This document shows, in pieces, positions 9,001 through 12,000 of a DNA stretch of 64,000 bases. The stretch is from Escherichia coli (GTDB taxonomy: Bacteria; Pseudomonadota; Gammaproteobacteria; Enterobacterales; Enterobacteriaceae). The stretch's first letter is position 1; each line of letters opens with the position of its first letter. Position numbers: made by a program. The stretch is taken from the NCBI RefSeq assembly GCF_041248615.1, contig NZ_CP158426.1; one strand, written 5' to 3'.

Positions 9001-12000
9001 GCGTAAAGAGACGGGGCTTTCTCCTGTTAACCAAAGCCAGACTTTTGGCGTCGCCTGGGATGACCCTGCCACCACCGCACCGGAAGCGTTTCGCTTTGAT
9101 ATCTGCGGCAGCGTTAGCGAACCGATCCCCGATAATCGTTATGGTGTGAGTAATGGTGAACTTACCGGTGGACGTTATGCTGTGGCCCGCCATGTTGGCG
9201 AGCTGGACGATATTTCACACACGATATGGGGCATCATTCGCCACTGGCTACCTGCAAGCGGCGAGAAAATGCGTAAAGCACCGATTCTGTTTCACTACAC
9301 CAATCTTGCCGAAGGGATGACAGAGCAGCGACTGGAAACAGATGTTTATGTGCCGTTGGCGTGATGAAGAATCTTTACCGGAGTGTGAGCCAAATCACTC
9401 GCGATAAGTTTGAGCGAACAATGCCACAGGCGTATTGTTGTTGGGCTTATAATTTCTCCGGTAAGGAATACCATGTATACGCGAAATTTATTATGGCTGG
9501 TCAGCCTGGTAAGTGCGGCTCCTCTCTACGCTGCTGACGTTCCCGCCAACACACCGCTCGCCCCGCAACAAGTTTTTCGTTACAACAATCATAGCGACCC
9601 AGGCACGCTCGACCCGCAAAAGGTAGAGGAGAATACTGCCGCGCAGATTGTGCTGGATCTGTTTGAAGGTCTGGTATGGATGGACGGTGAAGGTCAGGTG
9701 CAGCCCGCTCAGGCTGAACGCTGGGAGATACTGGACGGCGGCAAGCGCTATATTTTCCATCTGCGTAGCGGTTTGCAGTGGTCAGACGGTCAGCCTCTGA
9801 CGGCAGAGGATTTTGTCCTCGGCTGGCAGCGCGCGGTTGACCCGAAAACGGCAAGCCCTTTTGCTGGCTATCTGGCACAGGCGCACATTAACAATGCCGC
9901 AGCTATTGTTGCGGGTAAAGCAGATGTTACATCGCTGGGTGTCAAAGCGATGGATGATCGTACTCTTGAAGTTACGCTTGAGCAGCCGGTTCCTTGGTTC
10001 ACGACGATGCTCGCCTGGCCGACGCTGTTCCCGGTTCCCCATCATGTCATCGCGAAATATGGCGATAGCTGGAGTAAGCCTGCGCATATGGTTTACAACG
10101 GTGCCTTTGTGCTTGAACAGTGGGTAGTTAACGAAAAGATTACTGCACGCAAAAATCCAAAGTACCGCGATGCGCAACATACAGTATTGCAACAGGTTGA
10201 GTATCTGGCGCTGGATAATTCGGTCACCGGCTATAACCGCTATCGCGCGGGAGAGGTCGATCTCACCTGGGTTCCGGCGCAGCAAATTCCCACCATTGAA
10301 AAATCACTGCCTGGCGAGCTACGAATTATCCCGCGTCTGAACAGCGAATATTACAACTTTAACCTTGAGAAACCGCCATTTAACGATGTGCGGGTGCGTC
10401 GGGCGCTATATCTTACGGTTGATCGACAGCTTATTGCGCAAAAGGTACTGGGGTTGAGAACGCCCGCAACCACGCTGACGCCGCCAGAGGTAAAAGGCTT
10501 TAGCGCGACGACGTTCGATGAACTGCAAAAGCCAATGAGTGAGCGTGTCGCGATGGCAAAAGCCTTGCTGAAACAGGCGGGATACGACGCCTCTCATCCG
10601 CTACGCTTTGAGCTGTTCTACAACAAGTACGATCTGCATGAAAAAACCGCGATAGCGTTGTCTTCCGAATGGAAAAAATGGCTGGGTGCACAGGTGACGC
10701 TGCGCACAATGGAGTGGAAAACTTATCTTGATGCCCGACGAGCCGGTGATTTCATGCTGTCGCGGCAGTCGTGGGATGCGACGTATAATGATGCTTCCAG
10801 CTTCCTGAACACGCTCAAAAGCGATAGTGAAGAAAACGTCGGTCACTGGAAAAATGCGCAGTATGACGCCTTACTAAACCAGGCCACGCAGATCACTGAT
10901 GCGACAAAGCGTAATGCGTTGTATCAGCAGGCAGAAGTGATCATCAACCAACAGGCACCGCTGATTCCTATCTACTATCAGCCGTTAATCAAACTGCTTA
11001 AACCCTACGTTGGCGGTTTTCCGCTGCATAATCCCCAGGATTATGTCTACAGCAAAGAGTTGTATATCAAGGCACATTGATGCCTTTATCGCCGTCGGAG
11101 CACGTCCGGCGGCGCTATTCACGCTGATCTCCTGTGACTCGACGCGGCAGATAATGTAGTATCTCCGGCAATATTGCCCCTTTGAAGGCTGGCGAATAAG
11201 TTGAGGAATCAGAATTAATGAGCGATATGGCAGAGCGCCTTGCGCTACATGAATTTACGGAAAACGCCTACTTAAACTACTCCATGTACGTGATCATGGA
11301 CCGTGCGTTGCCGTTTATTGGTGATGGTCTGAAACCTGTTCAGCGCCGCATTGTGTATGCGATGTCTGAGCTGGGCCTGAATGCCAGCGCCAAATTTAAA
11401 AAATCGGCCCGTACCGTCGGTGACGTACTGGGTAAATACCATCCGCACGGCGATATCGCCTGTTATGAAGCGATGGTCCTGATGGCGCAGCCGTTCTCTT
11501 ACCGTTATCCGCTGGTTGATGGTCAGGGGAACTGGGGCGCGCCGGACGATCCGAAATCGTTCGCGGCAATGCGTTACACCGAATCCCGGTTGTCGAAATA
11601 TTCCGAGCTGCTATTGAGCGAGCTGGGGCAGGGGACGGCTGACTGGGTACCAAACTTCGACGGCACTTTGCAGGAGCCGAAAATGCTACCTGCCCGTCTG
11701 CCAAACATTTTGCTTAACGGCACCACCGGTATTGCCGTCGGCATGGCGACCGATATTCCACCGCATAACCTGCGTGAAGTGGCTCAGGCGGCAATCGCAT
11801 TAATCGACCAGCCGAAAACCACGCTCGACCAGCTGCTGGATATCGTGCAGGGGCCGGATTATCCGACTGAAGCGGAAATTATCACTTCGCGCGCCGAGAT
11901 CCGTAAAATCTACGAGAACGGACGTGGTTCAGTGCGTATGCGCGCGGTGTGGAAGAAAGAAGATGGCGCGGTGGTTATCAGCGCATTGCCGCATCAGGTT

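What the first reader, a model, noticed from the sequence alone, without database searches (positions are those of the whole stretch)
9365..9472. No mqsR-mqsA toxin-antitoxin module at the ygiV-ygiS junction
ygiV stop and ygiS start are separated by only 108 bp of non-coding DNA. In K-12 (from memory) mqsR and mqsA lie between these genes. This strain therefore lacks the mqsRA persistence/biofilm regulator at its canonical site, which makes that module accessory here.
Basis: partly seen in the sequence, partly recalled or inferred. Interest (0 to 1): 0.4.

Follow-up and report, generated by a model that had tools for sequence, protein, structure and literature searches.

The report
Ancestral empty mqsRA insertion site
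This E. coli strain never acquired the 0.9-kb mqsR-mqsA toxin-antitoxin cassette that K-12 carries between ygiV and ygiS; its unbroken 108-bp spacer is the ancestral and majority arrangement, so the finding is correct but ordinary.

Summary
ygiV ends at 9364, ygiS starts at 9473, and 108 non-coding bases lie between them. K-12 has mqsR and mqsA there. The window has 5 bp (AAGAA, 9370-9374) where K-12 has 927 bp.

The window is E. coli NRZ14408 (NZ_LT599825.1:864001-928000). No MqsR/MqsA coding potential exists in the 64 kb. No mqsRA-like DNA exists elsewhere on that chromosome, and none on any E. coli plasmid record.

Among 5,426 complete E. coli genomes:
- About 2,290 (42%) carry mqsRA. All copies are chromosomal, at least 95% identical, and essentially all are at this one junction.
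- About 3,110 (57%) have the empty junction.

All five other Escherichia species recovered, including E. albertii and E. whittamii, are empty and colinear at the ygiV-proximal junction. Six sampled filled alleles form one tight flank haplotype (0.10% divergence or less). The window's allele lies outside it (1.65%).

So the empty site is ancestral and mqsRA is a single derived, AT-rich insertion. The window shows no loss.

The accessory status of E. coli type II toxin-antitoxin modules, mqsRA included, is already published. Its biofilm/persistence regulator role is disputed.

Low interest; already known.

The parts
8882..9364 (+). ygiV (GyrI-like/AraC-family regulator), the left flank of the site. 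It is 98.75% identical to K-12 YgiV (V115I, V146M).
9365..9472 (+). Uninterrupted 108-bp ygiV-ygiS spacer: the empty (ancestral) allele of the mqsRA insertion polymorphism.
   Evidence: Colinear with E. coli W, E. albertii, E. whittamii and L004. Contiguous in 3,110 of 5,426 genomes. It diverges 9-12% from the outgroups, against 29-38% at ygiS four-fold degenerate sites.
9370..9374 (.). Insertion point. These 5 bp (AAGAA here, GGGAA in E. coli W) are replaced in K-12-type genomes by the 927-bp mqsR promoter-mqsR-mqsA-terminator cassette.
   Evidence: no target-site duplication or terminal repeats
9375..9386 (+). Left arm of the spacer inverted repeat (TCTTTACCGGAG).
   Evidence: (I2)
9448..9453 (+). 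Perfect TATAAT hexamer, 20 nt upstream of the ygiS ATG. It is a candidate -10 box of a ygiS promoter. This is inferred only: the consensus scan did not call a full promoter.
   Evidence: read directly; scan negative
9458..9469 (+). Right arm of the inverted repeat (CTCCGGTAAGGA). It overlaps the ygiS Shine-Dalgarno AAGGA.
9473..11080 (+). ygiS (periplasmic substrate-binding protein), intact here and the right flank of the site. It is 98.9% identical to K-12 YgiS.

Best explanation
Window 9365-9472 is the ancestral, never-occupied ygiV-ygiS intergenic region of the genus Escherichia. It probably carries the ygiS promoter and leader.

In one E. coli lineage, a foreign AT-rich 927-bp cassette was inserted once, immediately after the ygiV stop codon. 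The cassette comprises the mqsR promoter with two MqsA operators, mqsR, mqsA and a terminator. The insertion was an illegitimate event that replaced 5 bp and left no target duplication.

That filled allele now sits in about 42% of sequenced complete E. coli genomes on one nearly invariant flanking haplotype. NRZ14408, the source of the window, belongs to a lineage that never received it and has no copy elsewhere.

Shown: the coordinates, the absence, the census, the outgroup state, the single junction and the single flank haplotype. Inferred: the mode of insertion, a plasmid-like source, and promoter/leader function for the spacer.
For: Exact junction and indel.

Window identified as NZ_LT599825.1, with matching annotation.

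Census of 5,426 genomes:
- mqsRA is in 2,299 genomes, 2,283 of them at 80% coverage or more. All 2,313 places are chromosomal and all are at least 95% identical (2,296 genomes at 99% or more).
- The empty junction is contiguous in 3,110 genomes.
- The filled ygiV|insert junction is contiguous in 2,292 genomes.
- The two states sum to about 5,409, so they are mutually exclusive, and essentially every copy is at this site.

No copy elsewhere in NRZ14408: places_in_record=1.

Outgroups: all 5 other Escherichia species representatives lack mqsRA. Three of them have a 107-110-bp spacer colinear with the window.

Local flank tree over 6,195 columns:
- Six filled alleles lie within 0.03-0.10% of K-12 and form one clade nested inside E. 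coli.
- The window is 1.65% away and is sister to the empty GF43.
- The sampled ST95, O157:H7 and other E. coli alleles outside that clade are all empty.

Foreign origin of the insert: its GC content is 39-44% against 51-57% in the flanks.

Possible source: MqsA-family genes are common on plasmids of other Proteobacteria. The closest are on Rahnella plasmids, at 66-67% amino-acid identity.

Constraint on the spacer: it is about three times more conserved than four-fold degenerate sites.
Against: Only 6 filled and 7 empty E. coli alleles were placed in the tree, so a rare independent insertion or secondary loss somewhere in the species is not excluded.

The donor of the cassette was not identified.

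The RefSeq complete-genome set is a biased sample, so 42%/57% are not population frequencies.

Protein-level (non-DNA) homologues could not be searched across the whole NRZ14408 chromosome.
Confidence: 0.93

Rival explanations
1. Secondary loss. An ancestor of NRZ14408 carried mqsRA and lost it, either by deletion or by homologous replacement with an empty allele from another strain.
For: Toxin-antitoxin cassettes do decay and get lost in E. coli lineages. This is general knowledge, for example ccdO157 decay (Mine et al. 2009), which is cited in PMC7167474. Recombination is frequent in E. coli.
Against: The window's 6.2-kb flank haplotype is 1.65% from the filled haplotype and groups with other empty alleles. 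The spacer is colinear, base for base, with the outgroup spacers and has no cassette remnant. All outgroups are empty. Replacement by a whole empty allele longer than 6 kb cannot be formally excluded, but it is unnecessary.
Confidence: 0.04
2. Relocation or substitution. The strain has mqsRA, or a divergent MqsR/MqsA-family pair, at another chromosomal or plasmid location.
For: MqsA-family antitoxins occur on many plasmids in other genera.
Against: - The chimeric blastn query gives one place only in NZ_LT599825.1.
- All 2,313 mqsRA places in 5,426 genomes are chromosomal. 2,292 genomes have the canonical junction, against 2,299 with any copy.
- No hits in the 65-95% identity range exist in any E. 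coli genome.
- The only two 'E. coli plasmid' hits in PLSDB are questionable plasmids. NZ_MG591698.1 holds the chromosomal qseC-ygiV-mqsRA-ygiS-parC segment. NZ_CP141089.1 is 4.9 Mb long and was not inspected.
- No E. coli phage hit was found.
Confidence: 0.03
3. Assembly artefact: the cassette was collapsed or dropped in the NRZ14408 assembly.
For: None specific.
Against: The same contiguous junction occurs in 3,110 independently assembled complete genomes, including near-identical relatives (OW967178, CFSAN061763). The cassette is single-copy and non-repetitive, so there is no mechanism for a collapse.
Confidence: 0.005

Closest known systems
MqsR/MqsA (YgiU/YgiT) type II toxin-antitoxin module of E. 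coli K-12 (b3022/b3021)
   Same: Same chromosomal address: the window contains the exact flanks (ygiV, ygiS) between which K-12 carries the module.
   Different: The module is entirely absent here. There is no mqsR, no mqsA and no MqsA operator palindrome in the spacer. The window represents the unoccupied site, not a variant of the system.
[quoted passage not shown] Sources: Fiedoruk et al. 2015 (Microbiology 161:158); Ramisetty & Santhosh 2016 (FEMS Microbiol Lett 363:fnv238); Fraikin et al. 2020 (PMC7167474, Fig. 1B)
   Same: A promoter-toxin-antitoxin unit is integrated into an intergenic region of the core genome, present in some phylogroups and absent in others, without a recognisable mobile element. 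PMC5120126 Table 1 lists ygiV-204 bp-mqsR/mqsA-132 bp-ygiS.
   Different: Nothing in kind. Here the cassette does include its own terminator, whereas Ramisetty & Santhosh describe the minimal transferred unit as lacking one. The census numbers, the outgroup polarity and the exact 5-bp/927-bp junction given here were not found in the papers that could be read. The two primary papers (Fiedoruk 2015; Ramisetty & Santhosh 2016) could not be read.
ccdO157 toxin-antitoxin in the folA-apaH intergenic region of E. coli (Mine et al. 2009, Genetics 181:1557). Cited; details are from memory.
   Same: A chromosomal toxin-antitoxin pair occupies an intergenic spot in some E. coli strains, while other strains keep a short empty spacer.
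   Different: A different toxin-antitoxin family and a different locus. Not examined here.

Membership tests
MqsR/MqsA type II toxin-antitoxin system | An ORF encoding an MqsR-family (RelE-like) mRNA interferase toxin | tested here: not met
   tblastn of K-12 MqsR against all six frames of the window: best hit is 7 aa, E=1.5. No ORF in the 108-bp spacer resembles it.
MqsR/MqsA type II toxin-antitoxin system | An ORF encoding an MqsA antitoxin (N-terminal zinc finger plus C-terminal HTH-XRE domain) directly downstream of the toxin gene | tested here: not met
   tblastn of K-12 MqsA against the window: best E=1.6.
MqsR/MqsA type II toxin-antitoxin system | MqsA operator palindromes (ACCT N2-4 AGGT) in the promoter region | tested here: not met
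   The K-12 interval has two (ACCTTTTAGGT). The window spacer has none. The window has three in 64 kb, against about 3 expected by chance, and none is near the site (D1).
MqsR/MqsA type II toxin-antitoxin system | Presence anywhere else in the same genome | tested here: not met
   At the DNA level, NZ_LT599825.1 has a single place, the anchor only, for the anchor+mqsRA chimeric blastn query. There are zero plasmid hits in E. coli genomes. A protein-level search of the full chromosome is not possible with these tools.
Empty (ancestral) allele of an insertion polymorphism | Colinearity of the unoccupied site with outgroup species | tested here: met
   E. albertii, E. whittamii and L004 have a 107-110-bp ygiV-ygiS spacer that aligns end to end with the window. 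L003 and L005 are also empty but have ygiS decay.
Empty (ancestral) allele of an insertion polymorphism | Occupied alleles share one junction and one flanking haplotype, derived within the species | tested here: met
   The left junction is contiguous in 2,292 of the 2,299 mqsRA-positive genomes. The size difference is a constant 922 bp in all sampled rows. Six filled alleles differ by 0.10% or less and form one clade.
Deletion scar | Residual cassette sequence, or flanks belonging to the filled haplotype | tested here: not met
   No remnant was found at blastn word size 7. The flanks are 1.65% from the filled haplotype.

The most novel reading that the evidence does not exclude
The genus-conserved spacer may be an RNA leader. 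A 12-bp outer stem pairs the sequence immediately 3' of the insertion point with the ygiS Shine-Dalgarno (MFE -38 kcal/mol, z=-3.95). This stem would form only on read-through transcripts from ygiV.

On this reading, empty-site strains such as this one would couple ygiS translation to ygiW-ygiV transcription through a Shine-Dalgarno-sequestering hairpin. The mqsRA cassette, whose terminator abuts the stem, would rewire that control in K-12. That rewiring could underlie the conflicting reports on MqsR, ygiS and deoxycholate.

There is no covariation support: 0 compensatory pairs in 5 sequences.
Probability: 0.1. Interest if true: 0.35.

Novelty: already known. Interest (0 to 1): 0.08.

Why it matters
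It matters little beyond bookkeeping.

The result confirms that a much-studied 'global regulator' toxin-antitoxin of K-12 is missing from most E. coli genomes, including this multidrug-resistant clinical isolate, and that it was never part of the ancestral Escherichia genome. That fits the view that mqsRA is a selfish, accessory cassette rather than a core stress, biofilm or persistence regulator (Fraikin 2019/2020).

In practice, K-12 results that invoke MqsR/MqsA cannot be transferred to strains such as NRZ14408. Examples are rpoS/csgD repression, GhoT control and ygiS mRNA cleavage during bile stress.

The exact junction (5 bp replaced by 927 bp) and the census give a clean natural with/without comparison for anyone who wants to test those claims.

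Tried and rejected
- Rfam scan of 8300-9700 at E<=1: only a chance snoRNA hit at E=0.75.
- Sigma-70/terminator consensus scan of the spacer: no promoter called, and one weak terminator-like site at chance level.
- Repeat search of the K-12 interval for terminal inverted repeats or a target duplication that would point to a transposon or integrase: none found. It returned only the known MqsA operators and the spacer inverted repeat. The first attempt failed on strand syntax.
- Consensus fold of the spacer in 5 species: the stem is kept, but with 0 compensatory changes, so it is untestable.
- Phage origin: a single weak Pseudomonas phage hit.
- E. coli plasmid origin: rejected. The only two 100% 'plasmid' hits do not look like genuine plasmids. 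One holds the chromosomal segment; the other is 4.9 Mb long and was not inspected.
- Fiedoruk et al. 2015 is not held in the library, so the published phylogroup distribution could not be quoted.
- The sequence type and phylogroup of NRZ14408 could not be recovered from the literature. The nearest RefSeq relatives are listed, but I did not assign a phylogroup.
- I ran no further search on finding the cassette's donor, because that does not bear on the finding.

Full report
**Observation.** The ORF list and the sequence show ygiV at 8882-9364 (TGA stop at 9362-9364) and ygiS starting with ATG at 9473. That leaves exactly 108 non-coding bases, 9365-9472. The surrounding order is mdaB, IS1, qseC, qseB, ygiW, ygiV, ygiS, parC, plsC. 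The first 25 kb of the window is 100% identical, in one piece, to NZ_LT599825.1 (E. coli NRZ14408 chromosome) from position 864001. The RefSeq annotation of that record gives the same gene limits. NRZ14408 is a multidrug- and carbapenem-resistant clinical isolate (PMC8694152).

It is correct. In MG1655 the interval reads ygiV, 204 bp, mqsR (b3022), mqsA (b3021), 132 bp, ygiS, a total of 1030 bp. The same spacings appear in PMC5120126 Table 1. Alignment of the two intervals shows identical sequence up to GCGTGATG, which includes the ygiV stop, and again from TCTTTACCGG onward. Between these points the window has AAGAA and K-12 has 927 bp. The K-12 insert contains:
- the mqsR promoter with two ACCTTTTAGGT operators;
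- mqsR and mqsA;
- a hairpin-plus-T-run terminator that abuts the right junction.

The insert has no terminal inverted repeats and no target-site duplication. Its GC content is 39-44%, against 51-57% in the flanks.

**Is the module elsewhere?** Within the 64-kb window, tblastn with MqsR and MqsA finds nothing better than E=1.5. A sensitive blastn of the insert finds only chance matches.

For the rest of the genome I built a chimeric query. It joined a 3,026-bp single-copy anchor, ending 26 bp inside this strain's IS1, to the 920-bp K-12 mqsRA sequence. I ran it in blastn 'distant' mode. NZ_LT599825.1 came first and had exactly one place, the anchor. The chromosome therefore holds no mqsRA-like DNA at that sensitivity.

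Across all 20,395 E. coli replicons, no plasmid record holds mqsRA. In PLSDB, the only two 'E. coli plasmid' hits for MqsA do not look like genuine plasmids. One, checked directly, carries qseC-ygiV-mqsRA-ygiS-parC-plsC, a chromosomal segment. The other is a 4.9-Mb record, which was not inspected. A homologue recognisable only at the protein level on the chromosome could not be excluded.

**Census of 5,426 complete genomes.**
- The mqsRA probe hits 2,299 genomes, 2,283 of them at 80% coverage or more. There are 2,313 places, all chromosomal. 2,296 genomes are at least 99% identical, and nothing falls between 65% and 95%.
- The empty-junction probe is contiguous in 3,110 genomes.
- The filled ygiV|insert junction is contiguous in 2,292 genomes.

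The two states sum to about 5,409. They are therefore mutually exclusive, and essentially every copy sits at this one junction. About 1,400 of the empty genomes, E. coli W among them, additionally lack most of ygiS. The collection is a biased sample, so these are not population frequencies.

**Polarity.** A scan of one genome per GTDB species with YgiV returned five other Escherichia species: E. albertii, E. whittamii, and three further GTDB species representatives (two deposited as 'Escherichia sp.', one as E. coli). None has mqsR or mqsA. Three have a 107-110-bp ygiV-ygiS spacer that aligns end to end with the window. Two have independently decayed ygiS.

A neighbour-joining tree was built on 6,195 ungapped flank columns, from qseC to the 5' part of parC.
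- Six filled alleles, from strains of different origin and genome size, lie within 0.03-0.10% of K-12. They form a single clade nested inside E. coli.
- The window is 1.65% from that haplotype and is sister to the empty GF43.
- The ST95, O157:H7 and other sampled alleles are empty and lie outside the filled clade.
- The outgroups, 9.4-11.3% away, are empty.

The five filled loci fetched also share the same RefSeq protein alleles for QseC, QseB, YgiW and YgiS.

The simplest history is one insertion of a foreign cassette into an ancestrally empty site. The window never had it.

MqsA-family genes are frequent on plasmids of other Proteobacteria. The closest, at 66-67% amino-acid identity, are on Rahnella plasmids. 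They are essentially absent from sequenced phages. A plasmid-like donor is plausible, but none was identified.

**What the spacer is.** It diverges 9-12% from the three outgroups with intact ygiS, while four-fold degenerate sites of ygiS diverge 29-38%. The spacer is therefore under constraint.

It contains a perfect TATAAT at 9448-9453, 20 nt before the ATG. The consensus scan did not call a complete promoter.

An inverted repeat, 9375-9386 and 9458-9469, brackets most of the spacer, and its right arm overlaps the Shine-Dalgarno. As RNA, 9365-9480 folds at -38 kcal/mol, with z=-3.95 against shuffles. The stem is retained in the outgroups but without any compensatory change, so it is neither supported nor refuted. 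The K-12 insertion point lies immediately 5' of the left arm. I record this as a low-probability lead, not a finding.

**Comparison with what is known.** That E. coli type II toxin-antitoxin modules are accessory, unevenly distributed among phylogroups and integrated between core genes is published:
- Fiedoruk 2015 and Ramisetty & Santhosh 2016, both cited.
- Fraikin 2020, Fig. 1B: no toxin-antitoxin system is shared by MG1655, W, EDL933 and UTI89.

Pan-genome work lists mqsR, mqsA and ygiS as variable genes (PMC11390585). An AIEC strain (NRG857c) was reported to lack MqsRA (PMC7232551).

Fraikin et al. 2019 found no effect of mqsRA on csgD/cspD/rpoS expression, on biofilm formation, or on oxidative or bile stress (PMC6918082).

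**Verdict.** The refinement is that this is the ancestral, majority state and not a loss. It is already known in kind and of low interest. The exact junction, the census and the outgroup polarity are the only increments.

Noticed in passing
window 5400-6167 (IS1B) and flanks 5161-6279: An IS1B copy sits between mdaB and qseC and has replaced most of ygiZ. Its left flank matches sequence just upstream of ygiZ in E. coli W, and its right flank matches the 3' end of ygiZ. Near-identical relatives without the IS1 (e.g. NZ_OW967178.1) have about 384 bp there instead. This is an IS1-associated deletion private to this strain.
   Followed up: partly
window 9473-11080 (ygiS); L002 6616-6851; L003 4553-4922; L005 3713-4140; L018 3192-4920: ygiS is intact here but has decayed repeatedly elsewhere. 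About 1,400 of 5,426 genomes (E. coli W type) have window-equivalent 9495-11038 replaced by 236 bp of unrelated sequence. An O157:H7 genome annotates it as a split pseudogene. Two outgroup Escherichia species have independent internal deletions. The origin of the 236-bp filler in W was not determined.
   Followed up: partly
window 9365-9480: A stable hairpin (MFE -38 kcal/mol, z=-3.95), conserved across the genus, pairs 9375-9386 with 9458-9469, which overlaps the ygiS Shine-Dalgarno. A TATAAT at 9448 lies inside it. There is no covariation to test it. It could be a Shine-Dalgarno-sequestering leader on read-through transcripts.
   Followed up: partly
window 11218-13476 (parC): ParC differs from K-12 at S80I and D475E. 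S80I is the classic quinolone-resistance-determining-region substitution associated with fluoroquinolone resistance (established knowledge). That fits a multidrug-resistant clinical isolate.
   Followed up: partly
window 37303-39846 and 40359-44905: A nest of IS3-family elements lies between hybG and sslE: an IS1397 fragment, an intact ISEc31 and another IS3 fragment. RefSeq annotates sslE, the lipoprotein metalloprotease secreted by the adjacent type II secretion system, as a frameshifted pseudogene. The gspC-M/yghD genes downstream appear intact.
   Followed up: no
window 1-4189: A FecCD-type iron-siderophore ABC transporter plus a MurR/RpiR regulator lies next to ygiN. In E. coli W, parE is directly adjacent to ygiN. 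This looks like an accessory island present in only part of the species.
   Followed up: no
L020 (NZ_MG591698.1 50847-61239); NZ_CP141089.1: Two PLSDB 'plasmid' records look like E. coli chromosomal sequence. The first, a 354-kb 'non-mobilizable plasmid', holds qseC-ygiV-mqsRA-ygiS-parC-plsC. The second record is 4.9 Mb long and was not inspected. Such records could mislead plasmid-based surveys of toxin-antitoxin modules.
   Followed up: partly
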